This document shows positions 9,955 through 32,000 of a stretch of 32,000 nt of DNA, piece after piece. Made by a program: the position numbers and the translations under genes. The notes beneath the pieces are model-generated. The model did not search any database. It was given only the letters and a program-made list of their open reading frames with translations, and had not been told where the DNA came from. This DNA is from Erysipelotrichaceae bacterium MTC7 (GTDB lineage Bacteria > Bacillota_I > Bacilli_A > Erysipelotrichales > Erysipelotrichaceae): the NCBI GenBank assembly GCA_001695645.1, contig LVZN01000019.1, positions 1 to 32,000 of the forward strand, written 5' to 3'. Every line of letters begins with the position of its first letter. Position 1 is the stretch's first letter.

Positions 9955-9965
9955 AAGTTACCTCT

Positions 9966-10023
9966 TTTTCACTTCATTATAGTATAGGAAAGCAACGAGT
10001 GTAAAGTGAAAATGAAGTGAAAA
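9966..10023. repeat. 13-bp perfect inverted repeat bracketing the candidate promoter of the downstream LCP gene
   Basis: TTTTCACTTCATT (9966-9978) and AATGAAGTGAAAA (10011-10023). On the minus strand, -35 TTTACA (10005-10000), an 18-nt spacer and -10 TATAAT (9981-9976) lie between or overlap the arms. Confidence 0.5.
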
Positions 10024-10048
10024 GTTATGTTTCATATACAAGAACAAT

Positions 10049-10076
10049 AAAAAAAGATGTTCGGAAACACCTTTTT
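10049..10076 (-). terminator. Rho-independent terminator of the upstream LCP paralog
   Basis: On the minus strand: AAAAAGGTGTT-tccg-AACATCTTTTT (one G-U pair) followed by a T7 run. It lies 16 nt after the stop at 10092. Confidence 0.6.
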
Positions 10077-10091
10077 GTTTGTATATTCGAA

Positions 10092-20196: not shown

Positions 20197-20796
20197 ATGG
20201 CGATACTCAAACAATCAAACAAAGGAAATAAAAAAACAAAACATCGACCAAACTGGTTGTTGCGATTCACGATTGTGGTTGTGGCAATTCCATGTTTGAT
20301 TCTTGCTTTTGTATTACTTACATCGTTGGGTTCTTCCAACAAACCGGTCGTTGGTGATCGTTTTGAAGGTCAACTCAACCCAAAAATTGAAAGTGGTAAA
20401 ACAAAGGAAATCAAGGCTTTACTTGCATATCCTGAAGCAGAAAGCGTATCTGTCAATCTTAAAAGTGCAACGTTACGCATCACCATCAACTGTCTTGATG
20501 ATGTGAATAACGATCAAATTGCAGCTATTGTGAATGACGCATATGCAAAAGTAGATTCTGTATTACCCATTGGTACGTATTTCACCAACAAAGATAAAAC
20601 AAAAATGTATGATTTAGAAATACAGGTTTATAATTATCTACCTGATGAAAGTCGACCAACAAACATTCATTACGTACTTGTAAAGAATGCTAGTGCAGAA
20701 GCACAACATGTAGATAATGTCTCAGCTGCTAAAGATCAAGAAGTCGCAGACAAACTACAATCATATCCTAAACAAGGAGAAACCGTCGGGCAATAA
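20197..20796 (+). CDS. Hypothetical membrane-anchored protein (single N-terminal TM helix)
   Basis: SD AAGGAGA. Basic N-terminus followed by the hydrophobic helix LLRFTIVVVAIPCLILAFVLL. No motif recognised. Confidence 0.55.
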   Translation: MAILKQSNKGNKKTKHRPNWLLRFTIVVVAIPCLILAFVLLTSLGSSNKPVVGDRFEGQLNPKIESGKTKEIKALLAYPEAESVSVNLKSATLRITINCLDDVNNDQIAAIVNDAYAKVDSVLPIGTYFTNKDKTKMYDLEIQVYNYLPDESRPTNIHYVLVKNASAEAQHVDNVSAAKDQEVADKLQSYPKQGETVGQ

Positions 20797-20821
20797 TGTC
20801 CGACTTTTTTGGAGGAATGCA

Positions 20822-22138
20822 ATGAAAGAAAAAATACGTTTAACTGGTACGGTTATAGATTATACATACGATGGAATGGGTGTTGTTAAAGTGGATAACT
20901 TCACGTATTTTGTACGTGGGGTTTTGTTGCATGAAGAAGTTGAATTTCTTGTTTTAAAACGCAATAAAAACTTAGGATATGGAAAAGTGGAACGAATTAT
21001 AAAAGAAAGCGAACATCGTATTATACCTTCATGTCCATACTTTCCAAAATGTGGAGGATGTCATATCATGCATATGGATGAACAAGCCCAATTGGACTTC
21101 AAACATCGCATTGTAAAACAAAATATCAAGAACATTGGAAAACTAGACATTGAAGTGCGCAAACCACTTGCTAGTAATGCCTATCATTATCGCAACAAAG
21201 CGCAGTTTCCTGTACAAGCACAACCATTTGCAATGGGGTTTTATCGACAACGTTCCAATGATTTGGTCGATATTCAGACCTGTCTTGTACAAAGTGAATT
21301 AATCGATACCATTTACAAAGAATTACGTGCAATCAAAGATACAAGTTTTGTCGAAGATGTGCGTCACGTGTTAATTAAACATGCATTTGTCAGTGGGGAA
21401 GTCATGGTTGCCTTTATCATGCGGAAGGATCATAAAGATGAAATTGCTGCATTTATGAAACCTTTACTAGATAGATATCCGATCGTTTCTTTACTACAAA
21501 ACATTAACACAAGAAATGATAATGTGATTTTAGGTGATCATATTGATGTGATTGATGGAAAACCATCCATTGTTGAAGAACTTGATGGATTACAATTCCA
21601 AATTTCATTACATTCATTTTTTCAAATCAATCCAAAGCAAACCATTCATCTATATGATGAAGCAATCAAAGCAGCGAATATCACCAAAGACGATACCGTG
21701 ATTGATTTATATTGTGGTGTTGGAAGTATCACCTTGTTTCTTGCTAGACAAGCAAAGCATGTAACTGGAGTAGAAATCGTAGCTCCTGCAATTGAAAACG
21801 CCAAAATCAACCAACAGTTGAATCAAATAGACAATGTTTCATTTATTTGTAGTGATGCAGGTACATATGCAAGTAAAGTTGTCGCAAGTAAAAACTATCC
21901 GGACGTCATATTTGTGGATCCACCACGAAAAGGATTGGATGCATTAACCATTGAAAGTACGGTAAAAATGCAACCAAGAACAATCGCATATATTTCATGT
22001 AATCCAGCAACACTAGCAAGAGATATTGCGATATACAAAGAACATGGATATACGTGTGAATATGTACAACCTGTAGATATGTTTCCAAACACGTATCACG
22101 TTGAGACGGTAGTATTGATGTCAAGGGTTGATAAGTAA
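20822..22138 (+). CDS. rlmD: 23S rRNA (uracil-C5)-methyltransferase, RumA/RlmD family
   Basis: I prefer the ATG at 20822 (GGAGG at 20811-20815) over the ORF-track start at 20717, which overlaps the previous gene. TRAM-like N-terminus, Fe-S Cys cluster CPYFPKCGGC, SAM motif DLYCGVGS, and catalytic ISCNPAT. Confidence 0.9.
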   Translation: MKEKIRLTGTVIDYTYDGMGVVKVDNFTYFVRGVLLHEEVEFLVLKRNKNLGYGKVERIIKESEHRIIPSCPYFPKCGGCHIMHMDEQAQLDFKHRIVKQNIKNIGKLDIEVRKPLASNAYHYRNKAQFPVQAQPFAMGFYRQRSNDLVDIQTCLVQSELIDTIYKELRAIKDTSFVEDVRHVLIKHAFVSGEVMVAFIMRKDHKDEIAAFMKPLLDRYPIVSLLQNINTRNDNVILGDHIDVIDGKPSIVEELDGLQFQISLHSFFQINPKQTIHLYDEAIKAANITKDDTVIDLYCGVGSITLFLARQAKHVTGVEIVAPAIENAKINQQLNQIDNVSFICSDAGTYASKVVASKNYPDVIFVDPPRKGLDALTIESTVKMQPRTIAYISCNPATLARDIAIYKEHGYTCEYVQPVDMFPNTYHVETVVLMSRVDK

Positions 22139-22168
22139 GCGTGTAATAAGATAAGTAAATAAAGGCTT

Positions 22169-22218
22169 TCCGTGATTTGAGGTCTGGTTCTAAGCCGGAA
22201 GGATAATCACGGATTTTT
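22169..22218 (+). terminator. Terminator-like hairpin after rlmD
   Basis: Perfect 9-bp stem TCCGTGATT (22169-22177) / AATCACGGA (22205-22213) followed by T5 (22214-22218). The loop is unusually long at 27 nt. Confidence 0.55.
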
Positions 22219-22283
22219 GCTTTAAGGGAAGTTATCCAAGATTGGTGAATTTGAAAGTCTGTCCATGGAAAGATTTATTGGGG

Positions 22284-22325
22284 TGGTGAGTTGATAAAAT
22301 GGTTGGCAAAATAATGGTGAGTTGA
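22284..22325 (+). repeat. 11-bp direct repeat TGGTGAGTTGA x2, 31 bp apart
   Basis: Copies at 22284-22294 and 22315-22325. The second overlaps a TTGACA (22322-22327) that sits 16 nt upstream of TATAGT (22344-22349). Confidence 0.5.
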
Positions 22326-22416
22326 CATGATGGATAGAATAAATATAGTATCAATCTCTAGTGTCTAAGAGTATATTTTTTTAACTCCACTCTTCACTTA
22401 TCTATCAAGTCTTATA

Positions 22417-22445
22417 TTGACAAAAGGACATCAGGGTGCTAAACT
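22417..22445 (+). promoter_or_regulatory. Candidate sigma-A promoter of the methyltransferase gene
   Basis: -35 TTGACA (22417-22422), 17-nt spacer, extended -10 TGcTAAACT (22437-22445). It lies about 12 nt upstream of the ORF start region. Confidence 0.6.
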
Positions 22446-22457
22446 AAATTAACAAGG

Positions 22458-24488
22458 ATGAAAGGGGATGTGAATTTGAGATTTATTGGATCGAAATCTA
22501 ATTTAATTAACGAGATAGATAAGATAGTAAAAAAGAATATTCATGGAGATGAAGAAACATTTTTAGATTTGTTTGCAGGGACAAATATCGTCGGAGAATA
22601 CTTCAAAAAGGATTTTACGATTTATTCTAATGATATATTATATTTTAGCTACGTCAACGCAAAAGCTGTAATTGAAAATAACGGGAATTTGACATTTTCA
22701 AAGTTAAAGTTAGCGGGTATTGAATCTCCGCTAGACTATTTGCAGGAAAATGCCGAAAGATATATTCAGAATAGTGTCGTAGGTTACTATGAGCAAAACT
22801 ATACGCCTACAGGGGGGGCGATGTATCTCACCGTACAAAATGGGAAAAGAATTGACTATATTAGGGATAAGATTGATGTATGGAAAACTGAGAAGTTGAT
22901 AACAGATAATGAATTCTACTATTTACTTTCATCGTTAATAGAATCTATCCCTTATGTTAGTAATACTACGGGAACATATGGTGCGTATCTAAAACATTGG
23001 GATAAGAGAGCACTTAAATCATTAGAGCTTATACCTTTAGTTGTTCAGGATAACAAAAAAGAGAACAAAGCATATAACGAAGATGCTAATATACTAATTA
23101 ATAATAAAAAAGTGGATATTGCGTATATTGATACACCATATAATAATAGGCAATATGCTTCTAATTATCATTTGCTAGAAAATATTGCTAAAAATGATAA
23201 ACCAGAATTAAATGGCAAGACCAGAATTTTTGAATGGAGCAATTTAAAAAGTGATTACTCTATTAAGAGAAAAGCATTGACAGCAATGAAGGACTTATTA
23301 AATAATCTACAAGCTAAGCACATAATTTTGAGTTATAACAATGAAGGTATCATACCAGAGGATGAATTAATATCATTGATGAAAGAAAATTCTTTTGATG
23401 GGACAGTTCAGATAGAAAGAATTCCGTATCGGAAATACAAGTCAAAGAAACCTTCTAAAAGCGATGAATTATATGAAATTCTTATTTATGTTCAGAAGGA
23501 GGCAATTACTAATAAAAAGAGTAAAAGTATGTACATTGCTAAATCAAAACCAAGTAAATGGATTGGAGAAAAGCAGCGTTTAATCAAAAGTCCTCTAAAC
23601 TATATAGGTGGAAAGTTCAAGTTGCTAAAGCAGATTCTTCCGTTGTTTCCCTCTGAGATAGATACGTTTGTTGATCTATTTAGTGGGGGGGCTAATGTTG
23701 GAATCAATGTGGAAGCTAAACATTATATTTTTAATGATATGAACAATCGGATTAATGAGATGTTTCGCTATTTTGCAAAACAAGAAGTAGAATATCTAAT
23801 AGGTAGTATACGAAAGAGAATTGCTGAATATGACTTAACTAAGGAAAATGAGGAAGGGTATTTAGAATTTAGAAATCAATATAATAAAAATCCAAATCCA
23901 TTAGATTTATATGTGTTGGTATCGTTTAGTTATAATTATCAGTTTCGTTTTAATAACTCCATGGAATTTAACAATCCATTTGGACGCAACAGGAGTAGGT
24001 TCAGTGATAATATGGAAAAAAACTTAAGATTATTTGTCAACAAACTACACGAAATAGATGCCGAATTTACAGATGAGTTTTTCAATGAATTAGATTTATC
24101 TTGGTTGGGTGAAAAGGATTTTGTTTATTTAGATCCTCCGTATTTAATAACTACTGGTAACTATAATGATGGAAACAGAGGGTTTGTAAACTGGGGTATA
24201 GAACAAGAACGTGATATGTATAAATTGATGGACAAACTATCAAGGCAAGGAGTGAGGTATGCCCTTAGTAATGTAATAGAACATAAAGGTAAAAAAAACG
24301 AGCTACTTAAGGAATATATAAATACATCAAACGTAAGAGTCCATTATTTAGAATATAACTATAATAACTCGTCTCATAACTCCAAGGGAACAGGGAGTAC
24401 CGAAGTATTAATTACGAACTATGAGACAAGCAATTTCGATTTACTAACAGATAGAATTGGTTCTATTCGAAAAATTGCAAGTTCATAA
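22458..24488 (+). CDS. Fused two-domain N6-adenine DNA methyltransferase (Dam/D12 class x2), M.FokI-like
   Basis: Module 1: 'RFIGSKSNL', motif I DLFAGTNIVG, motif IV DTPY (23130-23141). Module 2 (from about 23590): 'LNYIGGKFKLL', DLFSGGANVG, DPPY (24132-24143). The layout and many strings match my recollection of M.FokI (starts MRFIGSK). The real start may therefore be the TTG at 22476, preceded by AAAGGGGA. Confidence 0.88.
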   Translation: MKGDVNLRFIGSKSNLINEIDKIVKKNIHGDEETFLDLFAGTNIVGEYFKKDFTIYSNDILYFSYVNAKAVIENNGNLTFSKLKLAGIESPLDYLQENAERYIQNSVVGYYEQNYTPTGGAMYLTVQNGKRIDYIRDKIDVWKTEKLITDNEFYYLLSSLIESIPYVSNTTGTYGAYLKHWDKRALKSLELIPLVVQDNKKENKAYNEDANILINNKKVDIAYIDTPYNNRQYASNYHLLENIAKNDKPELNGKTRIFEWSNLKSDYSIKRKALTAMKDLLNNLQAKHIILSYNNEGIIPEDELISLMKENSFDGTVQIERIPYRKYKSKKPSKSDELYEILIYVQKEAITNKKSKSMYIAKSKPSKWIGEKQRLIKSPLNYIGGKFKLLKQILPLFPSEIDTFVDLFSGGANVGINVEAKHYIFNDMNNRINEMFRYFAKQEVEYLIGSIRKRIAEYDLTKENEEGYLEFRNQYNKNPNPLDLYVLVSFSYNYQFRFNNSMEFNNPFGRNRSRFSDNMEKNLRLFVNKLHEIDAEFTDEFFNELDLSWLGEKDFVYLDPPYLITTGNYNDGNRGFVNWGIEQERDMYKLMDKLSRQGVRYALSNVIEHKGKKNELLKEYINTSNVRVHYLEYNYNNSSHNSKGTGSTEVLITNYETSNFDLLTDRIGSIRKIASS

Positions 24489-24497
24489 TAAAAGAGT

Positions 24498-24542
24498 TTA
24501 AGTGCACAAAACTTGAGATAATCCCGAAGTCTGTGCACTTAA
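24498..24542. terminator. Bidirectional terminator between the convergent M and R genes
   Basis: Perfect 11-bp inverted repeat TTAAGTGCACA (24498-24508) / TGTGCACTTAA (24532-24542) with a 23-nt loop. A-rich on the left flank and T-rich on the right. Confidence 0.65.
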
Positions 24543-24550
24543 TTTATTTG

Positions 24551-26296
24551 TCAATTATTAACCCAAAGAATCTCTTTATTATCAATATAGTCTGAGATTC
24601 TATTAGCATCGAGTTCGCCTCTTAGTACAGCATTAGCGCCAAGTAGCAGCTGCTCAACGTTTAATGCCGCCCCTTTTGTATTAGTTCGATTATACGTGCT
24701 TTCTATCTGTTCTTGAAATCTTCCTATAAATTTACTAGAGACCCACATAAAATAATACTTTTCTTTTTTAATACTTGACGGGAAGTTATTCCACCATTCT
24801 ATAGGATTACGTGTTGTATCTCTATATTGATTATCTTCAATATATCTTACCATTTCATCTTCTTGACTAATTGATTTGCTATATCCAGTACTATATGCCT
24901 TCGTGTCAATGATCATTCCAAAGTTAGCATTAAATACAAGGCAATCTGGTTTTCTCCCGCCGCCTAGCAAAACAGATTTTAAACCATAAACCTTTTTGAA
25001 AATTTCTGCAGTAATAATTTCGAAATCTCTATTTCTATTTCCATCAAAAGCAATTTCGAGCAGTTCAATATATTTTGCGGGTAAATCTGTTTTATTCATA
25101 AATTCAGCTTTACGTTGCTCTGATGCTTTATCTTTTAATTCCTTTGTGAGATTTAGTTTAGGTATTTCAAAATCAACTAGTAAGTCCTTCAACTCAATAT
25201 TAGGGCCGTTCTTCTCAATACGTATTCCAAAAGTGTTTAACCCTTGAATATCATTTTCAATAATTTTAGGATCATCATTGAAGCCCAGTTGCTGAAGTTT
25301 TTCCATTAAAACTTTAAATGACTTTGTTTCCTGCAAGAATTTCAATATATAGGAGCGTCTAGAGCGAATGTAATTTCTGTTTTCGCCCTCAACGGCTAAA
25401 AATTCCCAGGTTAGATATTTGGTAATACGCATATTTTTGGAGCTGCCATGTGCTTTTCGTAGTGCGTGGCTTCCCCGTCCTGTAATAGAAAACTCTTGGA
25501 AACCTGCTTTTTTTCCGTTAATCGTGTTAACAACAGTGCTATTTTTTTGCACAAAGCCAACTTTTTCTAACCAGGTCGATATCATACGTGCATATTTATC
25601 ACTAGTACCTTCAATATCTGACTTGATTTTTTTCTGTTCTTCATTTGTTCCACTGTTAAACCAGTCGAACATTAAGCTTTCATCATAGGATGTAAAACCT
25701 TTTTCACCAGAAAATCCTAATTGATTACCTATATAGAATTTACTAACTGGTCTAGTAGTTGATTCTAATATATTTAAAACTTGTGTTGCAGGAGGATAGC
25801 TTAAAAGAGAATTTCGGAGAATATTAATTTCATGTTCAGAATCATCAATAGATCGCGAAAATTCCCTACCCAAGGGCGTAATTGAGCACATATCCGTTTC
25901 GCGATTGTGTTTTACAAAATTTAGACTGAGAGCCCATCTTAAGTACCCATCAGATGTCCAATTATCAGTCCAAAACTTGCCTTTAGTCTTAGAGGATTGT
26001 GGTAATATTGTGATTTGTATTAACGCATCTGCAACAGCTTCAGATCTCGATTTAGGGGATCTTCCATGTTTGTTTTTTGAAGTACCTACGAGATCTAGAT
26101 ATGAGAATTCTTCAATTTTTCGAGTGAACTTATTTAATAAGTCAGATTTTATATCATCAAAATAGATATAGCGTGAAATCAAATTGCTTTTGAGGTTTTC
26201 ATAATGTACAGAAGTATTGTCAAAAATCTGAACCACTAGTTTTAATTTTTTGAAGTCAGATGGATTCTGAACCCAACCATATGTGCGTGAAATCAT
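24551..26296 (-). CDS. Type IIS restriction endonuclease, FokI family
   Basis: Collinear with FokI over its whole length. Matches include N-terminal 'TYGWVQNP..F..LK.VVQ.FD', 'SYPPA', 'GFSGEKGFTS' and 'SDKYARMI'. The cleavage domain has 'YIELLEIA', 'GGGRKPD(451)', 'IID(464)TK(466)AYSTGY', 'QEDEMVRYIEDNQ' and 'NPIEWW'. The PD...DxK catalytic triad and the equivalents of FokI D483/R487 (here D480/R484) are present. SD AAGGAGA. Confidence 0.9.
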   Translation of the reverse strand: MISRTYGWVQNPSDFKKLKLVVQIFDNTSVHYENLKSNLISRYIYFDDIKSDLLNKFTRKIEEFSYLDLVGTSKNKHGRSPKSRSEAVADALIQITILPQSSKTKGKFWTDNWTSDGYLRWALSLNFVKHNRETDMCSITPLGREFSRSIDDSEHEINILRNSLLSYPPATQVLNILESTTRPVSKFYIGNQLGFSGEKGFTSYDESLMFDWFNSGTNEEQKKIKSDIEGTSDKYARMISTWLEKVGFVQKNSTVVNTINGKKAGFQEFSITGRGSHALRKAHGSSKNMRITKYLTWEFLAVEGENRNYIRSRRSYILKFLQETKSFKVLMEKLQQLGFNDDPKIIENDIQGLNTFGIRIEKNGPNIELKDLLVDFEIPKLNLTKELKDKASEQRKAEFMNKTDLPAKYIELLEIAFDGNRNRDFEIITAEIFKKVYGLKSVLLGGGRKPDCLVFNANFGMIIDTKAYSTGYSKSISQEDEMVRYIEDNQYRDTTRNPIEWWNNFPSSIKKEKYYFMWVSSKFIGRFQEQIESTYNRTNTKGAALNVEQLLLGANAVLRGELDANRISDYIDNKEILWVNN

Positions 26297-26320
26297 TTCA
26301 TTATCTCCTTACTTAGTAAA

Positions 26321-26536
26321 TTATAAACTATTATCTTTTATCGTCTCCATAATATCTTCAAGCTTGCAATCAAGTGCTTCACATATTTTAAGCAGAATAT
26401 CCGTAGTGATATTCTCGCCTTTACCAAGCTTTGCTATAGATGCAGAGCTTATACCGGTGGCATTCTTCAAATCTTGTTTATTCATATTTTTATCAATTAG
26501 CATTTTCCAGAGTTTGTTGTAGCTAATTCTGAGCAT
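26321..26536 (-). CDS. XRE-family (Cro/C1-type) HTH transcriptional regulator; possible C-protein-like controller of the R gene
   Basis: 71-aa protein with the HTH 'NKQDLKNATGISSASIAKLGKGE' and 'ILLKICEALDCKLEDIM'. SD AAAGGAGA. It ends 24 nt upstream of the R start. Confidence 0.85.
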   Translation of the reverse strand: MLRISYNKLWKMLIDKNMNKQDLKNATGISSASIAKLGKGENITTDILLKICEALDCKLEDIMETIKDNSL

Positions 26537-26562
26537 ATTTCTATCTCCTTTATTGGATTTCC

Positions 26563-26590
26563 ATCCTAATTGCTATATACATCATGTAAA
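26563..26590 (-). promoter_or_regulatory. Weak candidate internal promoter for the XRE-R pair
   Basis: On the minus strand: -35 TTTACA (26590-26585), 16-nt spacer, -10 TAGGAT (26568-26563). The -10 overlaps the ATPase stop codon and a GGATG pentamer. The match is only 4/6 in the -10. Confidence 0.3.
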
Positions 26591-28395
26591 AAACCATAAC
26601 GACTTTCTTTGTACTTACTTATATATTTGCCATGTGTAAATTCTATTACCTTAGCATCTCTAGCCTCATAATCTAAATCTGGAAGATCCTTTGTGTTTTC
26701 TACAACTATCATTTGTCCTTCGGATTGATTGTCAATAAAGTATTGGAATAGGGCGGTTCTCATGCTTGTAGGTGCATTATCATCGACGCCTTGATCAAGA
26801 CCAAGCAAAGGTGTATCCACCACAAAAATTCCTGGTCTATGTACAGCATCTTCGTGTAAATACTTTCTAAAAGTTAACCCTACAATTGTATTGATAAAAG
26901 CCCAGTAACCCTTACCATGACTATCTTCTTTTGCATAGCCATTTATTTCTAAATCAAATGTACCCATGTTGAAATGAGCCGTATTCAAATTTTCATATTT
27001 GCAGTCAACTAGAATTGAATATGCTATTTCATCTATACGTGTATTAAAATCGACAGGGAAGTGTTCTTTTGGTTTAAATTTTGGGTTATCCGAATCATCA
27101 CTTTCTTGCTTTTGTAATTCAACAATCCACTCTTGTGAAACGCTTTGCAATACAGTTGATTCTTGTTGTAATTGTATATAAGAGCGATATTGTTGTATTC
27201 CTTCTCTTAGTTTATTAGATTGCGGAGTAAGTTCAGTTTCGATTAATTTATCTATCCCCGATCTTTGTCTTTCAAGATGATCGATTTTTTCACGAACTTC
27301 ATTTAATGATGAAACGACATCTTCTTCACTCTCAGACAAGCCCTGCAATTGAGTAATGATGCGATTCAGTTCAGCTCTTGATGCTTTAATGTATGATTTT
27401 CTCTCTGCTGGTTGCATATTACCATCACAAAAAGGACATTTTTTATTTTTATCAACAGAGTGTAGATGTACCTCTCCATCTACAATAAATGATAATCTTT
27501 TTATATCAGCTGTATATTGGCTTCGTAGCGATTGAAAGTGAGAATAAGTAACTTGGTTTTCTGCTTCTTTTTCCTTTAAATCTAGTAAAGTACCTAGTAA
27601 ATCCTTACTCTCTTCTGTAGCAGCCGCAATAGCAGCTTCAGTTTCAGAAAGATTGTCAATTAGCTTTTGCATTTCATCTTCCACATCTAAATCGCTATAA
27701 GTAGACAATGCTTTTTGTAGCTCTTCTCTTTTTTTAGACATCTGAGAAATTCTACCGTTTACAAATTGGCGAACAGCATCTTTTTTAGCTTTGCTGATTT
27801 CATCCTTGTCATGTTCCTCCATATCTGGGTATTCATTTCCAGTGAGAAGATATAGAAGGGATGCAAAAAAATAAGGATTCTGAGTAGGCGATGAAGGTAA
27901 AAGCACCGATTTCGGATTTTCAATTTCTTGTTCTTTTAACCAAAACAATCCCATAAGAGTTTTCCATGAGAGGCGTTGTCTAGCAAAATCTTGATTTTTT
28001 ATTATCATTGGCAGTTTTTTAATACCAATCAATTTAAGCCAAAGTTCATTTAAAACAGGATTTTTATTCCCGTTACTCTTATATTTAACGTCATAGTCAC
28101 CACCATCAATTGAGTTAATTTGGCTGACCACGTTTACTATATTCTTTCCAACTATCCGAGAGAGATGAATAGTGCCTTCTGGGGTATTAATATCTAGGCT
28201 GACGCTATCATATCCTGTTTGTTCTTTTTCAAAAGGCTTTTCAATTACACCCATAGCAAACTGGATGCATTTTAATATGCAGGTCTTTCCGGAATCGGAA
28301 ACTCCACAAATGATATTTAATCCTTTATCAAAAGTTACAATAGCAGGGGACTTCCCTGTGCCGGTTGCTGTGACTTTAGAAATATAAAACGCCAT
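26566..28395 (-). CDS. SMC-like coiled-coil ABC ATPase (DUF3732/LmuB-like; ABC-3C ATPase component)
   Basis: Walker A GVSDSGKT (res 31-38). Long charged helical insertion at about res 195-430 with CPFC at res 320-323. Signature-like SHGKGYW, Walker B IFVVD(527)TP, and QMIVVEN. SD GGAAGGAG, with a 5-nt gap after the preceding gene. Confidence 0.85.
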   Translation of the reverse strand: MAFYISKVTATGTGKSPAIVTFDKGLNIICGVSDSGKTCILKCIQFAMGVIEKPFEKEQTGYDSVSLDINTPEGTIHLSRIVGKNIVNVVSQINSIDGGDYDVKYKSNGNKNPVLNELWLKLIGIKKLPMIIKNQDFARQRLSWKTLMGLFWLKEQEIENPKSVLLPSSPTQNPYFFASLLYLLTGNEYPDMEEHDKDEISKAKKDAVRQFVNGRISQMSKKREELQKALSTYSDLDVEDEMQKLIDNLSETEAAIAAATEESKDLLGTLLDLKEKEAENQVTYSHFQSLRSQYTADIKRLSFIVDGEVHLHSVDKNKKCPFCDGNMQPAERKSYIKASRAELNRIITQLQGLSESEEDVVSSLNEVREKIDHLERQRSGIDKLIETELTPQSNKLREGIQQYRSYIQLQQESTVLQSVSQEWIVELQKQESDDSDNPKFKPKEHFPVDFNTRIDEIAYSILVDCKYENLNTAHFNMGTFDLEINGYAKEDSHGKGYWAFINTIVGLTFRKYLHEDAVHRPGIFVVDTPLLGLDQGVDDNAPTSMRTALFQYFIDNQSEGQMIVVENTKDLPDLDYEARDAKVIEFTHGKYISKYKESRYGFLHDVYSN

Positions 28396-28400
28396 ACAGG

Positions 28401-28853
28401 TTACTCCTTCCTTAACGATTTAGACGCTTCTCTACTAATCAAATTAAGAAGTTCTTTTTCGTTTTTCGAATCCATATAAATAATAGCTTTGTGTGCATAC
28501 AATCTATATTCATTGGCATAATCAGAAGCTAGGGAACTGCATAAGGCAAGTCCACGTTCTGTAATAGAATATATAAAGCCATCATTTGAATAAGAAACCC
28601 TAACCAAGTTTTCTAAAACAAGCTGTTTAATAGCTTGTTGTGATAATGATCTTCTCGCAGAAAATTCAGAAAAACTAAATTCATTATCACCATGAAGATT
28701 GCTATTTGATAATCCAAATTCTTTTGAGTAATTTGAAATAAAATCTGCTGTTACCAGCTTATCAATTGTAAACTTATTATTATTAGACAATGATAAGACA
28801 AGTAGTAATCTCATTGATATTTCAAATTCAGTATTGAAAACTTTATCATTCAT
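28401..28853 (-). CDS. Small winged-HTH protein (ABC-3C middle component / LmuC-like)
   Basis: I prefer the start at M11 (ATG 28853-28851), giving an ATGAATGA overlap with the upstream stop; the ORF-track start is 28883. It is a helical protein ending in a helix-wing pattern, 'QQAIKQLVLENLVRVSYSNDGFIYSITERG'. Confidence 0.72.
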   Translation of the reverse strand: MNDKVFNTEFEISMRLLLVLSLSNNNKFTIDKLVTADFISNYSKEFGLSNSNLHGDNEFSFSEFSARRSLSQQAIKQLVLENLVRVSYSNDGFIYSITERGLALCSSLASDYANEYRLYAHKAIIYMDSKNEKELLNLISREASKSLRKE

Positions 28854-29847
28854 CTTCATCCACCCACCGAACGCAACCATCATTTACCAATAGATGACAG
28901 GTTCCTTTCTTTTCTTTTGGGCCTACTAGATTTTGGATATTATCAACAACAGATGTGGTAGAGCAATCGACTACCTTTTTCATAACGGCTAACAGCCTTT
29001 TGTATCCATCATCGTAATCATCCCATAAAGTATCTTTAATGTAATCATGTGTTTCAGACTTCCACTTCTTAGAATGTTCTTCGCCTTTATCTATAGATTC
29101 TCGAATAAAGCGGTCAATACGCAATGCACTATAATAATTGATTCGTTGATCAGAGAAGTTTCTTTTGAATTTTGTAGGTAACGAGTCTAAATCAGCTTTT
29201 GTCAAATTACCAGATTTTATAGCTTCTGCATAAGCTGCAAGAAGCTCACTAACATATTTCTCTTCTTCAGGAGCAATGTCTTGTGGAGGCTCGATCTCCT
29301 TAGGAATAGATATTTCAACATTACCTATATGTAATTTTCCATCAGATTCGTCATAATAAATAGTTTGAGAAGGTAAAGATGCTAATTTAGAAGGGGAAGT
29401 TGCATTATTAGAAACATTGATGCTAGACGATTCTCTGCCTTCATAAATGTCATCTAGAATTTGAAGAAACAAATCAGCACAAGCATATCCTAAAACTTCA
29501 TCGGGATTGAAGCCTGGAATCATTTTTTTGATTTCATCCTCAATAGCCATCTGATTATGATCGTTTAAATTACTTATGTAATTTGCAAATTTATCTGTAT
29601 CTTTACGACTAATAACTACATGTACCTTTTTGGGGTTCAAAGGATTACTACCCTTTATCAATCGATCTAATGAGTCTGGTTTGAGAACACCAAAAGGGTT
29701 ATATCTATCATTCTCAGACAATTTTATTTCTTCCACCGTTTGAGGGGCTCTCATGATATTGTCAAAAAGCGACAGAAAAAACTCATATGGTTTATATGAT
29801 GTACCACTGTGTTTATAAAGTATATTCGCAAATTCACTAAAGAGCAT
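28846..29847 (-). CDS. Effector-position protein of the ATPase triad (LmuA-like placement); N-terminal ~140 aa unassigned
   Basis: SD GGAGGTGG 4 nt upstream of the ATG. It has two helical halves split by a Ser/Asn-rich linker (about res 139-160). The C-terminal half ends 'KKGTCHLLVNDGCVRWV'. I saw no nuclease, protease, TIR, SIR2 or HEPN motif. Confidence 0.8.
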   Translation of the reverse strand: MLFSEFANILYKHSGTSYKPYEFFLSLFDNIMRAPQTVEEIKLSENDRYNPFGVLKPDSLDRLIKGSNPLNPKKVHVVISRKDTDKFANYISNLNDHNQMAIEDEIKKMIPGFNPDEVLGYACADLFLQILDDIYEGRESSSINVSNNATSPSKLASLPSQTIYYDESDGKLHIGNVEISIPKEIEPPQDIAPEEEKYVSELLAAYAEAIKSGNLTKADLDSLPTKFKRNFSDQRINYYSALRIDRFIRESIDKGEEHSKKWKSETHDYIKDTLWDDYDDGYKRLLAVMKKVVDCSTTSVVDNIQNLVGPKEKKGTCHLLVNDGCVRWVDEDE

Positions 29848-29868
29848 TATCTGCCACCTCCAACTATA

Positions 29869-29903
29869 TTTCCGAATCTTTCCGAACCTCTCCGAGTCCT
29901 TCC
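29869..29903. repeat. About 3.5 tandem copies of a 10-bp unit (TYTCCGARYC), exactly 10-bp phased, upstream of the triad
   Basis: TTTCCGAATC (29869-29878), TTTCCGAACC (29879-29888), TCTCCGAGTC (29889-29898), CTTCC (29899-29903). It starts 22 nt upstream of the ATG at 29847 and abuts the hairpin CCTTCC/GGAAGG (29898-29914) + T8. Confidence 0.7.
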
Positions 29904-30095
29904 TTAATGGAAGGTCTTTTTTTTATACAATTTTATTAGTGATTGAGTGATATTGAAGAAGAAATTGCAAGCAAAAAAGACTGCTTAAATTATATCACGA
30001 AAAATCACACATTACCAGAAGAAAAATTCACAAAAGCAAATATTTTATCATTTATTGTTGAATTTATCTTCAAAAATGGAAAGGAGGTAGTGCAG

Positions 30096-30239
30096 ATGGC
30101 CAAACGTAATACGAAGCAAACATCAAAAAGAGTTGCGTCAAAAGCAAGCAAAATTCTTAACGATGGACGCTACAGTAAGAAATCCAAGTCAGTGGCTGGC
30201 AGTGCTTTAAGTCAAACTAGACCAAGCAAGAAAAAGTAA
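30096..30239 (+). CDS. Small (47 aa) highly basic Lys/Ser-rich protein
   Basis: Strong SD AAAGGAGG (30080-30087) 8 nt upstream of the ATG at 30096. The longer 98-aa ORF-track version starts at a TTG (29943) with no SD. Sequence: MAKRNTKQTSKRVASKASKILNDGRYSKKSKSVAGSALSQTRPSKKK. Confidence 0.5.
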   Translation: MAKRNTKQTSKRVASKASKILNDGRYSKKSKSVAGSALSQTRPSKKK

Positions 30240-30467
30240 TTTTCAGAACAGATGATAGGTAGCGACAGATTTGAATAATCAGCCTACTTATCCTCCCTAA
30301 GGGAGAAATCTATCCAGAGCGGTTATCGCTCAACAAAATCAATCTCAAAGTCCTAGTGCGCATACGGACGGCGGGATGCATAAGAGTTCAGAACACAGTA
30401 ATAAAGACTGTGTTTGGAATGAAGATGCACCCACCGTTATTTCGTGTGCCCTTTTTTAGGACAAGCG

Positions 30468-30501
30468 GAGTCTGTGGTCATCTTCACCGCAGGCTCTTTT
30501 T
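30468..30501 (+). terminator. Rho-independent terminator / attenuator 40 nt upstream of the sigma-like gene
   Basis: 10-bp stem GAGTCTGTGG (30468-30477) / CCGCAGGCTC (30487-30496) with two G-U pairs, a 9-nt loop, then TTTTT (30497-30501). Confidence 0.7.
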
Positions 30502-30541
30502 GTATTCCGCCGCCCAATGACTAGGCGGGAAGGAATACTTT

Positions 30542-31084
30542 ATGAAGATTCGAGTTTTATATGAAGACAACATTAAAAACGGTCACAAGAACTACACCAC
30601 AATTGAAATTCCAGATGGAGATTACAGCGTCATGCTGGATATCGACTATGAGCAACGTCTTGCAGAAGCAAAGCCTGAAAAGAAGGCAGAGGTGAAACGC
30701 TGCGAGACTCTACAAGAAATGTTCGACCTCATGAACAACAAGGAATATAACCATTGGCGCCGCTACCATAGGCACCTTGGTAATACCAAGACACCTTATC
30801 GAAAAGATGATGAAGTTGAAATTGATGTCATGGATACTTTCGCTGATAACTCCCAGGAGATAGAACGCAATCACCAAGATGAGTACGAATCTGTCTGCCA
30901 ATGGATACGCACCGTTCTTGGCAAAAAGCAGGACTGGGCAGATATGTTCATTGCAGTACGGATTGACGGTATGTCGATTCGAGAATATGCCAGTTCCATC
31001 GGTGTTAATGAAAACAATATTACTCAGAAATTAAAGCGAGCAACCAAGAAATTAGAACAAGAATATAAAAAACGTCAGATTTGA
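30542..31084 (+). CDS. Sigma-70 region-4-like HTH protein typical of Firmicute ICE/phage regulatory modules
   Basis: The C-terminal 'MSIREYASSIGVNENNITQKLKRATKKL' resembles a sigma region 4.2 HTH. SD GGAAGGAA. GC content is higher than in the neighbouring cargo. Confidence 0.6.
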   Translation: MKIRVLYEDNIKNGHKNYTTIEIPDGDYSVMLDIDYEQRLAEAKPEKKAEVKRCETLQEMFDLMNNKEYNHWRRYHRHLGNTKTPYRKDDEVEIDVMDTFADNSQEIERNHQDEYESVCQWIRTVLGKKQDWADMFIAVRIDGMSIREYASSIGVNENNITQKLKRATKKLEQEYKKRQI

Positions 31085-31148
31085 CCTTCTCCCAAGGCTA
31101 CTAGGTAGGAGGTCAAGACCTCCAAAAAAACACAAGGAGGTAATTCGA

Positions 31149-31931
31149 ATGGAATTACAAGTTTACAAAAATGCAGAGTTTGGCTCTGTACGTACTACAA
31201 CGATTGCTGGTCAACCTTATTTTGTAGGTAAGGATGTAGCTGATATTCTCGGCTACTCAAATACTCGCAAAGCTTTGATCGACCATGTTGACAAAGAGGA
31301 CAAGGATGACGTAACGATTCGTGACGCCATCGGAAGAAATCAAACGATGACTGCTATCAATGAATCCGGTCTTTATAGCCTCATCCTCTCAAGCAAGATG
31401 CCGAATGCTAAAAAGTTTAAGCGATGGGTGACAAACGAAGTCCTCCCTGCTATTCGGAAACATGGACTTTATGCAACAGATGATTTAATCGCAAATCCAG
31501 ACCTTGCCATTGCTGCATTTACTGCATTAAAAGAGGAACGTGAAAAAAACAAGGAACTGATGGCGGCCGTTGCGATTGGTCAGCAGCAGATTGCCGAGAT
31601 GAAACCCAAGGCTACTTACTATGATGTGGTTCTTAAATGCAGGGATGCAGTCAATATCTCTGTGATTGCCAAAGATTACGGCTGGAGTGCCATGCGCATG
31701 AACGAATACCTTCATGAAAAAGGCATTCAGTACAAACAAGGAACTATTTGGCTTCTCTATCAAAAGTATGCTCCAAATGGATATACCAAAACCAACACTC
31801 ATATTTACGAAGATAGTAAGGGTATCCAACATACGAAAGTGCACACCAAGTGGACGCAAAAAGGCAGACTCTTTATCTATGAACAGTTAAAAGCCGACGG
31901 TATTTACCCGCAAATTGAGATGGAGGTGTGA
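31149..31931 (+). CDS. Phage/ICE antirepressor, Bro-N + KilAC (ANT) domains
   Basis: Bro-N: 'FGSVRTTTIAGQPYFVGKDVADILGY...ESGLYSLILSSKMPNAKKFKRWVTNEVLPAIRKHG'. KilAC: 'YYDVVL...ISVIAKDYGWSAMRMNEYLHEKGIQY'. SD AAGGAGG. Confidence 0.88.
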   Translation: MELQVYKNAEFGSVRTTTIAGQPYFVGKDVADILGYSNTRKALIDHVDKEDKDDVTIRDAIGRNQTMTAINESGLYSLILSSKMPNAKKFKRWVTNEVLPAIRKHGLYATDDLIANPDLAIAAFTALKEEREKNKELMAAVAIGQQQIAEMKPKATYYDVVLKCRDAVNISVIAKDYGWSAMRMNEYLHEKGIQYKQGTIWLLYQKYAPNGYTKTNTHIYEDSKGIQHTKVHTKWTQKGRLFIYEQLKADGIYPQIEMEV

Positions 31932-31932
31932 T

Positions 31933-32000
31933 ATGGGAATCAATATGAAAAATGCAGAAGGGTATTATGACCCAACTCCCCATAAAGCACTTAGCAATAT
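31933..32000 (+). CDS. Truncated ORF (MGINMKNAEGYYDPTPHKALSNI...), hypothetical mobile-element protein
   Basis: ATG 6 nt after GGAGG (31922-31926) and 1 nt after the antirepressor stop. It is open to the window end. The family is not recognised with confidence. Confidence 0.4.
   Translation, partial: MGINMKNAEGYYDPTPHKALSN

What the first reader, a model, noticed from the sequence alone, without database searches (positions are those of the whole stretch)
26566..29847. Tightly coupled three-gene SMC-like ATPase module (Lamassu / ABC-3C architecture) whose effector-position protein has no recognisable effector domain
Seen in sequence: three minus-strand genes run 333 aa -> ~150 aa -> 609 aa. 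They are joined by an ATGAATGA start/stop overlap (28846-28853) and a 5-nt gap (28396-28400), and each start has a GGAGG-type SD. The 609-aa protein has a split ABC head. It carries Walker A GVSDSGKT (res 31-38), about 235 aa of charged helical insertion (res ~195-430, nt ~27106-27813), then signature-like SHGKGYW, Walker B IFVVD527TP and QMIVVEN. The ~150-aa protein ends in a winged-HTH-like helix-wing. The 333-aa protein has two helical halves separated by a Ser/Asn-rich linker. In its N-terminal ~140 aa I can find no PD-(D/E)xK, HNH, HEPN, TIR, SIR2, protease or phospholipase motif. Established knowledge: the order 'effector-CTD protein, small middle component, coiled-coil ABC ATPase (DUF3732/LmuB type)' defines type II Lamassu, DdmABC and the ABC-3C conflict systems. 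In those systems the first protein normally carries the toxic N-terminal domain. Inference: this is a candidate anti-phage/anti-plasmid system that uses either a new effector fold or an adaptor domain recruiting an effector encoded elsewhere. Its location in a defence/R-M island supports a conflict role.
Basis: partly seen in the sequence, partly recalled or inferred. Interest (0 to 1): 0.88.

Follow-up and report, generated by a model that had tools for sequence, protein, structure and literature searches.

The report
Prophage Lamassu with portable unknown head domain
This is a real, already-catalogued type of SMC-like anti-phage system (short type II Lamassu) carried at the end of a prophage, but its "effector" carries an uncharacterised 135-residue helical domain that recurs at the front of at least eight other kinds of immune-type systems, always behind the same promoter and 10-base repeat array, so it may be a regulatory head and not a toxin.

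Summary
The genes, junctions and every cited motif are at the stated coordinates.

The system call is right. PADLOC gives full-length LmuA, LmuC and LmuB matches (E 9e-124, 2e-58, 2e-256). Pfam gives CTD6 and MC2. So this is a catalogued short type II Lamassu / ABC-3C system.

- The operon has four genes. A 71-aa Xre HTH follows LmuB in 26 of 30 related loci.
- LmuB has a CPFC zinc hook.
- The "island" is the end of a Φm46.1-like prophage beside rlmD/rumA. LmuA is 99.7% identical in Streptococcus phage Javan630.

The N-terminal 140 aa of LmuA has no Pfam, PDB-sequence or PDB-fold match, although the model is confident (pLDDT 94). It is a mobile domain found in 129 protein clusters, almost always N-terminal. 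Its partners include CTD6, CTD11, NACHT, NB-ARC/TPR, HamA, TIR, and the first genes of AAA_13-ABC and SF1-helicase systems.

No second copy lies nearby, which argues against an adaptor role. No catalytic-looking residues are conserved.

The domain travels with a conserved extended −10 promoter and a leader carrying 3–5 direct repeats at 10-nt spacing. Controls lack this array.

My best inference (about 0.4) is a non-catalytic binding or regulatory output domain driven by oligomerisation.

The parts
29989..29997 (-). Extended -10 promoter TGATATAAT, 150 nt upstream of the LmuA start codon
   Evidence: Read directly in the sequence. A TGnTATAAT-like box lies 125-165 nt upstream of the N-domain gene in nearly all architectures examined. 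Function as a promoter is inferred.
29848..29988 (-). Roughly 130-140-nt 5' leader of the operon, containing the TTGTATAAAA box, a CCTTCC-N5-GGAAGG hairpin and the repeat array
   Evidence: No Rfam match and no significant fold (z = -0.44).
29869..29898 (-). Three direct 10-nt repeats GACTCGGAGA / GGTTCGGAAA / GATTCGGAAA at exactly 10-nt spacing, ending 21 nt before the ATG
   Evidence: One search gives the coordinates. TCGGA x3 is reached in 1 of 500 shuffles. Equivalent arrays occur in 60 of 71 N-domain loci (52 of 63 unique N-domain sequences) across all architectures. They are absent from controls.
28846..29847 (-). LmuA (333 aa): N-domain residues 1-140 (nt 29428-29847), disordered linker 141-161, small beta unit 163-180, CTD6 195-328 (nt 28864-29265)
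   Evidence: PADLOC PDLC03857 E 8.8e-124 full length. Pfam CTD6 E 6.9e-40. AlphaFold pLDDT 84.8 for the whole protein and 94.2 for the N-domain alone.
28401..28853 (-). LmuC / ABC-3C middle component 2 (150 aa from M11), overlapping the LmuA stop by 8 nt
   Evidence: Pfam MC2 E 2.5e-49, PADLOC LmuC PDLC03875 E 1.9e-58. Weak winged-helix hits at residues 82-139 (HTH_45 E 0.016).
26566..28395 (-). LmuB, short SMC-like ABC ATPase (609 aa): Walker A nt 28282-28305, CPFC zinc hook nt 27427-27438, Walker B nt 26809-26829
   Evidence: PADLOC LmuB PDLC03867 E 2.1e-256 (1-607 vs 2-604/605), Pfam AAA_23. Motifs. Rad50/ASRP NCBIfam hits are far below their cut-offs.
26321..26536 (-). Conserved fourth gene: 71-aa Xre-type HTH (HTH_26), 29 nt after LmuB and 24 nt before the FokI-like REase gene
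   Evidence: Pfam HTH_26 E 3.5e-20. Present directly after LmuB in 26 of 30 related Lamassu loci, down to 31-35% LmuA identity. Also follows N-dom-NACHT, PDC-S06 and PDC-S53 systems.
30096..31931 (+). Divergent prophage early operon: 47-aa basic ORF (30096-30239), sigma70-region-4-like protein (30542-31084), Bro-N/KilAC antirepressor (31149-31931)
   Evidence: Pfam. 97.4% identical to Javan630 over 29848-32000. The Javan630 annotation continues into primase, helicase, terminase, capsid, tail and lysis genes.
22458..26296 (.). Neighbouring FokI-like type IIS R-M: two-domain N6-adenine MTase 22458-24488 (+), REase 24551-26296 (-). This occupies the variable cargo slot downstream of the HTH gene and is not part of the Lamassu
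   Evidence: Pfam FokI D1/D2/D3 and cleavage domains, MethyltransfD12 x2. PADLOC REase_II/MTase_II. In other loci this slot holds NgoFVII, NgoBV, HsdR, a C5-MTase, a SNF2 helicase or a DruA-like gene.

Best explanation
SHOWN: This is a prophage-borne short type II Lamassu (ABC-3C, CTD6/MC2 class). The operon is LmuA-LmuC-LmuB plus a small Xre HTH gene. It is transcribed leftward from the intergenic region that faces the early operon of a Φm46.1-like prophage inserted beside rlmD/rumA.

INFERRED BY HOMOLOGY to solved Vibrio, Salmonella and Bacillus Lamassu complexes: a zinc-hooked LmuB dimer with LmuC scans DNA and recognises DNA ends. LmuA is held as an inactive monomer through its CTD6. ATP-dependent release then lets the CTD oligomerise LmuA, probably into a tetramer.

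SHOWN: The output domain (LmuA 1-140) is not a known effector. It is a compact eight-helix domain that has been shuffled onto the N-terminus of the first gene of many NTPase-based systems. It always travels with its own extended -10 promoter and a leader carrying 3-5 direct repeats at 10-nt spacing.

INFERRED (my commitment, about 0.4): the domain is non-catalytic. It is a binding or regulatory head whose activity depends on oligomerisation. Its locally basic helix-Gly-helix segment (residues 57-80) recognises the tandem repeats in its own promoter-proximal leader, as DNA or as RNA. Free, multimerised LmuA would then change expression of its own operon, and possibly of the divergent phage early operon, in the way MalT and AfsR-type STAND regulators act on direct-repeat boxes. 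Whether it also harms the cell or phage directly is not known.
For: System identity. Co-occurrence of the genes. Mechanistic template: PMC12663957 and bioRxiv 10.1101/2025.06.23.660979. The whole-model fold search finds solved LmuA chains as top hits, but weakly (E 0.1).

Portable domain: phmmer against 1.84 billion representatives gives 129 clusters, nearly all matching at residues 1-135. Partners are CTD6 x14, CTD11 x10, NB-ARC/TPR, NACHT-SNaCT14, HamA, TIR+VWA and Sel1, plus the first genes of PDC-S06 (AAA_13 ABC) and PDC-S53 (SF1 helicase) systems.

Non-catalytic look: the only positions at least 80% conserved in 102 non-redundant sequences are hydrophobic residues plus N50, P51, G66, D83 and C123.

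Cis link: arrays occur in 60 of 71 loci (52 of 63 unique sequences). Per locus, 0-4 of 500 shuffles reach the observed value in most cases. Arrays are present where no sigma-like or HTH_26 gene exists (L126/127, L129) and upstream of a standalone N-domain protein (L131). They are absent upstream of a slot-mate system lacking the domain (L045), of CTD6 LmuA genes with other N-termini, and of 21 other window genes. The extended -10 box has a conserved position.

Binding surface: residues 61-80 are the only net-basic stretch (+3.6), with conserved basic positions 62, 68, 72/73 and 86. hhalign places residues 53-82 on Xre helix 3-loop-helix 4.

Genomic position: the gene is divergent from the phage early operon in Javan630 and NatCom_6392, and no other repressor is annotated there.
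Against: No HTH or other DNA-binding family matches the domain. Pfam gives nothing at E<=10. hhalign probabilities are only 1-3%. Foldseek PDB best hit is E 0.39.

The domain is acidic overall (median pI 4.96).

The segment that would be the Xre recognition helix (residues 33-48) is variable, acidic and sometimes deleted.

Co-variation between domain sequence and repeat core is confounded by linkage, and the same GGAC core occurs with domains only 18% identical.

In every characterised Lamassu the N-terminal domain is a toxic enzyme, so a purely regulatory output would be unprecedented.

Another factor could bind the repeats. They also run into the SD and may act on translation.
Confidence: 0.4

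Rival explanations
1. The N-domain is a genuinely new toxic effector, enzymatic or not, activated by CTD-driven oligomerisation like Cap4 in DdmABC. The promoter and repeat leader is simply tight expression control exerted by some other factor.
For: It occupies the position held by the effector in all characterised Lamassu and ABC-3C systems. It also sits at the N-terminus of STAND NTPases, where bacterial NLR-like proteins usually carry effectors. It folds confidently into a fold with no PDB neighbour. N50, D83 and C123 are conserved polar residues.
Against: There is no recognisable catalytic constellation and no conserved His, Lys or Glu. The domain precedes bona fide effector domains (HamA, TIR) in single polypeptides. 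Standalone N-domain proteins exist with no evident immunity partner. The strict coupling to a cis repeat array is not a feature of known effector domains.
Confidence: 0.3
2. The N-domain is an adaptor (EAD-like) that recruits, by homotypic contact, an effector protein carrying the same domain and encoded elsewhere.
For: The domain occurs both on NTPase or scaffold proteins and on proteins with effector domains (TIR+VWA in P0165, HamA in P0112). It is all-helical and apparently non-catalytic.
Against: No second copy lies in the 32-kb window, within about 8 kb of 36 genomic Lamassu loci, or in 80 metagenomic loci. Only 2 of 113 architectures carry a known effector. The HamA fusion is itself the first gene in the same slot, not a partner.
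Confidence: 0.12
3. It is an effector-less Lamassu in which LmuBC alone acts, for example by capping or occluding phage DNA ends. The N-domain would be a structural remnant, and the fourth gene would be only the controller (C) protein of the neighbouring R-M system.
For: A published clade of short Lamassu 'seemingly lost the effector domain' yet keeps intact LmuB and LmuC. HTH_26 is followed 24 nt later by the FokI-like REase here, and by other REase, HsdR or MTase genes elsewhere. It also follows a system lacking the N-domain (L045).
Against: The N-domain is strongly conserved over wide divergence, confidently folded and independently mobile, which is not remnant behaviour. HTH_26 stays 51-94% identical while the downstream R-M type changes completely. 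True C proteins co-vary with their R-M system.
Confidence: 0.1

Closest known systems
Short type II Lamassu / DdmABC (Vibrio cholerae Lamassu Vc-Cap4; Salmonella LmuACB); ABC-3C systems of Krishnan et al. 2020
   Same: Gene order LmuA-LmuC-LmuB. Roughly 600-aa LmuB with Walker A, a Walker B of the hhhhD[QSTE] type (IFVVDT) and a CxxC zinc hook. MC-family middle component. LmuA with a conserved CTD (here CTD6) behind a flexible linker.
   Different: The N-terminal domain is not Cap4, Mrr, Sir2, protease, lipase, HNH, FMO or any Pfam family. A conserved fourth gene (Xre HTH) is present. The operon has a conserved long leader with 10-nt repeats. It is carried at the switch-proximal end of a prophage.
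'Clade O' short Lamassu of Haudiquet et al. (PMC12663957), described as having seemingly lost the LmuA effector domain
   Same: Short LmuB and intact LmuC with an LmuA lacking any annotated effector. Many species.
   Different: I could not verify whether this locus belongs to that clade, because no supplementary data are held. Here LmuA is full length (333 aa) with a well-folded, conserved 140-aa N-domain, so 'lost' would be a misdescription.
STAND transcription regulators (MalT; AfsR/SARP-NB-ARC-TPR; Xre-HTH-NB-ARC-TPR proteins). Functional analogy from established knowledge, not homology.
   Same: An N-terminal small binding domain fused to NB-ARC+TPR (P0153, P0107). Output depends on oligomerisation. 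Targets are short direct repeats phased by about one helical turn.
   Different: No sequence or fold match of the N-domain to SARP, LuxR or Xre domains. The repeats lie downstream of the putative promoter, in the leader.
Bacillus phage phi105 immunity repressor and its direct-repeat operators
   Same: A roughly 140-aa protein encoded leftward from the switch, divergent from the early operon. Asymmetric operators arranged as direct repeats containing ACGGAAA (verified in AB016282), resembling the TTCGGAAA units here. The phage uses a serine recombinase.
   Different: The phi105 repressor is a canonical Xre HTH. Similarity to the N-domain is not significant (hhalign probability 1%). phi105 operators are 14 nt long and spaced 23-30 nt apart, not 10.

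Membership tests
Lamassu type II (short) / ABC-3C | SMC/Rad50-like ABC ATPase with split head and coiled-coil insert (LmuB) | tested here: met
   PADLOC LmuB PDLC03867 E 2.1e-256, full length. Pfam AAA_23. Walker A/B, signature-like motif, CPFC hook.
Lamassu type II (short) / ABC-3C | Small middle component (LmuC / MC family) between LmuA and LmuB | tested here: met
   Pfam MC2 E 2.5e-49, PADLOC LmuC E 1.9e-58.
Lamassu type II (short) / ABC-3C | First protein carries a family-specific C-terminal domain (CTD) that docks on LmuB/C | tested here: met
   Pfam CTD6 E 6.9e-40, residues 195-328. PADLOC LmuA PDLC03857 E 8.8e-124. Docking itself was not tested.
Lamassu type II (short) / ABC-3C | First protein carries a recognised toxic N-terminal effector domain | tested here: not met
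   No Pfam, NCBIfam, PDB-sequence or PDB-fold match for residues 1-140.
Lamassu type II (short) / ABC-3C | The genes co-occur as an operon across genomes | tested here: met
   LmuA-LmuC-LmuB in the same order in all related loci long enough to show them, and in two phage genomes.
Lamassu type II (short) / ABC-3C | Protects against phage or plasmid, dependent on the LmuB ATPase | not testable with these tools
   Needs cloning and plaque or transformation assays.
Effector-associated (adaptor) domains, EAD type | The same domain occurs on an NTPase/scaffold protein and on a separate effector protein in the same neighbourhood | tested here: not met
   The domain HMM finds one copy per locus in the window and in more than 100 loci. 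No Pfam EAD family matches.
Xre / lambda-repressor-like HTH DNA-binding domains | Significant profile or fold similarity to an HTH family | tested here: inconclusive
   Pfam none. hhalign vs an Xre profile: probability 3%, pairwise E 0.015, in the expected register. Foldseek lists Xre and repressor entries only at E 0.7-3. A locally basic helix-Gly-helix segment is present.
Housekeeping RecN / SbcC / Rad50 / RecF | Reaches the curated equivalog score | tested here: not met
   NCBIfam Rad50 35 bits vs cut-off 700. ASRP 43 bits vs cut-off 300.
Φm46.1-group prophages at the rum locus | Siphovirus gene set, serine recombinases, insertion beside the rumA/rlmD-type methyltransferase gene | tested here: met
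   97-99.7% identity to Javan630, which has terminase, capsid, tail and lysis genes plus serine recombinases. An rlmD-like gene lies at 20717-22138. The rum hotspot is documented in PMC5053989. The att site and the far end lie outside the window.

The most novel reading that the evidence does not exclude
The 140-aa head is the nucleic-acid-binding output of a family of prophage/MGE switch regulators that use defence-type NTPases (the Lamassu SMC-like complex, NACHT/NB-ARC STANDs, AAA_13 ABC ATPases, SF1 helicases, Hachiman) as interchangeable input sensors. In this window Lamassu would not be a suicide nuclease system. It would be a DNA-end sensor wired to transcription. Sensing of foreign or replicating DNA releases LmuA, which tetramerises, binds the 10-nt repeat array in the switch region, and resets expression of the lysogeny-side operon and/or the phage early operon.
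Probability: 0.18. Interest if true: 0.9.

Novelty: new variant of a known kind. Interest (0 to 1): 0.64.

Why it matters
All Lamassu mechanisms solved so far end in activation of a nuclease. Here the same sensor core is joined to a domain with no enzymatic signature. That domain is reused by at least eight unrelated sensor architectures and is locked to a specific cis element.

If the head is a regulator, it would show that SMC-like and STAND immune sensors can drive transcription, or a prophage's life-cycle decision, instead of cell death. It would also explain the published "effector-less" Lamassu clade.

If it is a toxin, it is a new and widespread effector fold.

Either way, the promoter–repeat–domain cassette is a practical marker for finding first genes of uncharacterised defence systems in Firmicute prophages. 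It also warns that the PADLOC LmuA model PDLC03857 cross-hits non-Lamassu proteins through this domain.

Tried and rejected
- **Known effector or EAD family for residues 1-140:** rejected. Pfam at E<=10 on ten diverse members, NCBIfam, a PDB profile search and Foldseek PDB on the whole protein and on the domain alone all gave nothing.
- **Cis-encoded homotypic partner:** rejected. The HMM finds one copy per locus.
- **Homology to Xre HTH or the phi105 repressor:** not demonstrable. hhalign probability is 1-3%, so I keep it only as an analogy.
- **The sigma-like protein as universal neighbour and binder of the repeats:** rejected as universal. It is present in 40 of 55 loci. Elsewhere the first divergent gene is Rha, a DeoR-type HTH, DUF2800 or DUF4417, while the repeats persist.
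- **HTH_26 as strictly N-domain-specific:** rejected. L045 has HTH_26 without the domain, and NB-ARC loci have the domain without HTH_26.
- **Structured leader RNA or known riboregulator:** no Rfam hit and z = -0.44.
- **Assigning the repeat binder by co-variation:** uninformative because of linkage.
- **Simple sigma-70 and terminator scan:** fewer promoter-like hits than in shuffles. It missed the extended -10 box because of its weak -35.
- **Clade O membership:** could not be checked, because no supplementary files are held. Krishnan et al. 2020 was not readable.

Full report
**1. Observation**

The three minus-strand ORFs are present at 28846-29847 (333 aa), 28401-28883 (160-aa ORF) and 26566-28395 (609 aa). 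The biologically sensible start of the middle gene is M11 at 28853. The PADLOC LmuC alignment begins at residue 13, and the identical gene in Streptococcus phage Javan630 is annotated as 150 aa.

The junctions are as described. ATGAATGA (28853-28846) is an 8-nt overlap, 5 nt separate LmuC from LmuB, and GGAGG-type SD sequences precede LmuA and LmuB.

All LmuB motifs are at the stated residues:
- Walker A 31-38 (K37)
- SHGKGYW 492-498
- IFVVD527TP
- QMIVVEN 561-567
- helical insert at nt 27106-27813

The same call shows a CPFC motif at residues 320-323, at the midpoint of the coiled coil. This is a Rad50/SbcC-type zinc hook, as reported for many short LmuB proteins (PMC12663957).

The Ser/Asn-rich linker of LmuA is the only disordered part of the AlphaFold model (residues 140-161).

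**2. What the system is**

PADLOC-DB contains full-length models for all three proteins:
- LmuA PDLC03857, E 8.8e-124, residues 1-333 against 1-327/327
- LmuC PDLC03875, E 1.9e-58
- LmuB PDLC03867, E 2.1e-256

Pfam gives CTD6 (residues 195-328) and MC2 of the ABC-3C systems, and AAA_23 for LmuB. Housekeeping Rad50 and SMC-related NCBIfam models score far below their cut-offs.

In 36 genomic loci retrieved with an LmuA alignment, the three genes always occur together in the same order wherever the contig is long enough.

So this is a member of the short type II Lamassu / ABC-3C family, and as a system subtype it is already catalogued. Public databases name the homologues 'ABC-three component system protein' or 'hypothetical protein'.

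**3. Corrections to the anatomy**

*(a) There is a fourth gene.* The 71-aa HTH_26 (Xre-type) gene at 26321-26536 lies 29 nt downstream of LmuB. It is conserved in that position in 26 of 30 related Lamassu loci, including a clade whose LmuA is only 31-35% identical.

Downstream of it the content is variable and mostly R-M or defence:
- FokI-like REase (this window)
- NgoFVII-like and NgoBV-like REases
- HsdR
- a C5-MTase
- a SNF2 helicase
- a DruA-like protein

CTD6-type Lamassu loci with a different LmuA N-terminus (Bradyrhizobium) lack it.

*(b) The 'island' is the end of a prophage.* LmuA is 99.7% identical, and the flank 29848-32000 is 97.4% identical, to Streptococcus phage Javan630. In that record the Lamassu operon is divergent from the following genes, in order:
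- a 47-aa basic ORF
- a sigma70-region-4-like protein
- an antirepressor
- primase and helicase
- terminase, portal, capsid and tail genes
- lysis genes
- large serine recombinases

A complete, unrelated phage genome (NatCom_6392) has the same arrangement.

In the window the prophage abuts an rlmD/rumA-type methyltransferase gene (20717-22138). The rum locus is a documented hotspot for Φm46.1-group prophages (PMC5053989).

Copies that are 99-100% identical occur in Allofustis, Clostridiales, Anaerovoracaceae and even a 'Methanolobus' MAG, which shows recent horizontal spread.

**4. The N-terminal domain**

Residues 1-140 match no Pfam family even at E<=10, in ten diverse members. There is no NCBIfam hit and no PDB sequence profile hit.

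AlphaFold predicts an eight-helix bundle with very high confidence (pLDDT 94.2, pTM 0.88). Foldseek finds nothing in the PDB (best E 0.39, TM about 0.3). In BFVD it finds only three uncharacterised siphovirus proteins (E 1.7e-4 to 1.7e-2, TM 0.66-0.75).

The domain is not a Lamassu peculiarity. An exhaustive phmmer search found 129 clusters, and the match is almost always at residues 1-135 of the target.

Fusion partners:
- CTD6 and CTD11
- NB-ARC + DUF7779 + TPR
- NACHT + SNaCT14
- HamA
- TIR + VWA
- Sel1 and TPR regions

In loci fetched through the HTH_26 gene, the domain also heads other systems:
- the first gene of a three-gene AAA_13 ABC-ATPase system (PADLOC candidate PDC-S06)
- the first gene of a two-gene SF1-helicase system (PDC-S53)
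- the first gene of a CTD11 + DUF2326 ABC system

Standalone 166-179-aa versions also exist.

**5. What the domain is not**

*An adaptor?* A homotypic adaptor model predicts a second, effector-bearing copy nearby. The domain HMM finds exactly one copy in the window and in every related locus.

*An enzyme?* An enzyme would be expected to show conserved catalytic residues. In 102 non-redundant sequences, the only positions at least 80% conserved are hydrophobic residues plus N50, P51, G66, D83 and C123.

The domain is acidic overall (median pI 4.96). Its only net-basic stretch is residues 61-80, a helix-Gly66-helix segment with conserved basic positions 62, 68, 72/73 and 86.

hhalign places residues 53-82 on helix 3-loop-helix 4 of an Xre profile, but only at 3% probability. 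I treat an HTH relationship as unproven.

**6. A conserved cis element**

Three direct 10-nt units lie upstream of LmuA at 29898-29869, at exactly 10-nt spacing, ending 21 nt before the ATG: GACTCGGAGA, GGTTCGGAAA, GATTCGGAAA.

Equivalent arrays of 3-5 copies precede the N-domain gene in 60 of 71 loci (52 of 63 unique domain sequences), in every architecture. The core varies: CGGAA, CGGAC, GGTAG, GGATA, GGACA, TGACC, AATCC. In most loci 0-4 of 500 shuffles reach the observed chain.

The array is present where no sigma-like or HTH_26 gene exists (L126/127, L129). It is also present upstream of a standalone domain protein (L131).

The array is absent in the controls:
- upstream of the slot-mate PDC-S06 system whose first gene lacks the domain (L045)
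- upstream of CTD6 LmuA genes with other N-termini
- upstream of 21 other genes in this window

An extended -10 box (TGATATAAT, 29997-29989) lies 150 nt upstream of the ATG. A similar TGnTATAAT box sits 125-165 nt upstream in nearly all architectures. The repeats therefore lie in a conserved leader of about 130 nt.

That leader has no Rfam match and no significant fold.

A divergent sigma70_r4-like gene accompanies 40 of 55 loci but is replaced elsewhere by Rha, a DeoR-type HTH, DUF2800 or DUF4417. The invariant unit is therefore promoter + repeat leader + N-domain, facing an MGE early operon.

**7. Mechanism**

*Shown:* the identity and architecture of the system, the portability of the head domain, and its cis coupling to the promoter and repeat array.

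*Inferred by homology* to the solved Vibrio, Salmonella and Bacillus complexes: LmuB2-LmuC senses DNA ends, LmuA is sequestered through its CTD, and ATP-dependent release allows CTD-mediated oligomerisation.

*My inference (about 0.4):* the head is a non-catalytic binding or regulatory output domain that recognises its own tandem repeats when multimerised. All its partner scaffolds oligomerise on activation. This parallels MalT and AfsR-type STAND regulators acting on phased direct repeats (established knowledge). The phi105 repressor with its direct-repeat ACGGAAA operators is a similar arrangement; I verified the operators in the sequence, but homology is not supported.

*Rivals:*
- a new toxic effector (0.3)
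- a trans-acting adaptor (0.12)
- an effector-less Lamassu with a remnant domain (0.1)

The role of HTH_26 is unresolved. It could be the operon or phage regulator, or a C-protein-like controller of the variable downstream R-M slot.

**8. Novelty and verdict**

Its novelty claim is overstated for the system, which is catalogued in PADLOC, and an 'effector-less' short-Lamassu clade has been published.

It is justified for the domain, which remains uncharacterised. New here, to my knowledge:
- the breadth of the domain's architectures
- the four-gene operon
- the prophage switch-side location
- the conserved promoter and 10-nt repeat leader

I rate it a new variant of a known kind, interest 0.64. 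The most novel reading is that the Lamassu sensor is wired to transcription through this head (probability 0.18).

Noticed in passing
window 22458-26296: A complete FokI-like type IIS R-M pair. The 676-aa methyltransferase has two D12-class N6-adenine MTase domains (like M.FokI). The convergent 581-aa REase has FokI D1/D2/D3 recognition domains plus the cleavage domain. The REase start lies only 24 nt downstream of the HTH_26 gene on the same strand, which is the usual position of a controller (C) protein.
   Followed up: partly
window 29898-29922 (+ strand): Terminator-like hairpin CCTTCCTTAATGGAAGG followed by T8 on the + strand, inside the switch intergenic region and overlapping the first repeat unit. 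On the LmuA mRNA the same stem would form a hairpin within the leader, about 70 nt from its predicted 5' end. A second terminator-like site at 30467-30497 (+) lies between the 47-aa ORF and the sigma-like gene.
   Followed up: partly
window 29943-30239: The mechanically listed 98-aa ORF (TTG start) is probably not real. The conserved gene is the 47-aa, very basic product starting at M52 (30096, SD AAAGGAGG), as annotated in Javan630. The true switch intergenic region is therefore 29848-30095 (248 nt).
   Followed up: yes
PADLOC model PDLC03857 vs L107:1402-2415, L089:4632-5573, L116:882-2309: The PADLOC 'LmuA' model that covers this protein also hits, through the N-domain alone (E 4e-10 to 5e-16), the first proteins of non-Lamassu systems (PDC-S06, PDC-S53, CTD11 type). 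This is a likely source of partial or false Lamassu calls.
   Followed up: partly
L001 (JAVEPM010000258.1, 'Methanolobus sp.' MAG) and L002-L005: LmuA copies that are 99-100% identical occur in bins assigned to an archaeon, Clostridiales, Clostridiaceae, Anaerovoracaceae and Allofustis. This means either very recent cross-family phage transfer or mis-binned contigs. The archaeal assignment is most likely contamination.
   Followed up: no
L133 (Javan630 record 42349-46580): The far end of the same prophage carries aminoglycoside and spectinomycin adenylyltransferase genes next to three serine recombinase genes. This phage family therefore moves both antibiotic-resistance and defence cargo.
   Followed up: no
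window 8122-11660 (- strand): Two adjacent paralogous LytR-CpsA-Psr genes (610 and 522 aa) on the strand opposite to the surrounding housekeeping genes (pcrA, ligA, camS, gatCAB). They have long N-terminal regions without Pfam matches.
   Followed up: no
window 20197-20796 vs 20717-22138: A 199-aa ORF with no Pfam match overlaps the start of the rlmD/rumA-like gene by 80 nt. Composition drops from about 0.36-0.40 GC to 0.30-0.34 from about 22000 to 30000 and rises to 0.41 in the phage early region. This is consistent with mosaic cargo at the prophage end.
   Followed up: no
L016 and L017 (Lachnoclostridium phytofermentans KNHs2131): One genome carries two copies of this Lamassu type with identical leader arrays (4 x CGGAA). 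One copy has a fragmented LmuB and lacks the HTH_26 gene. This suggests two related prophages, one of them decaying.
   Followed up: no
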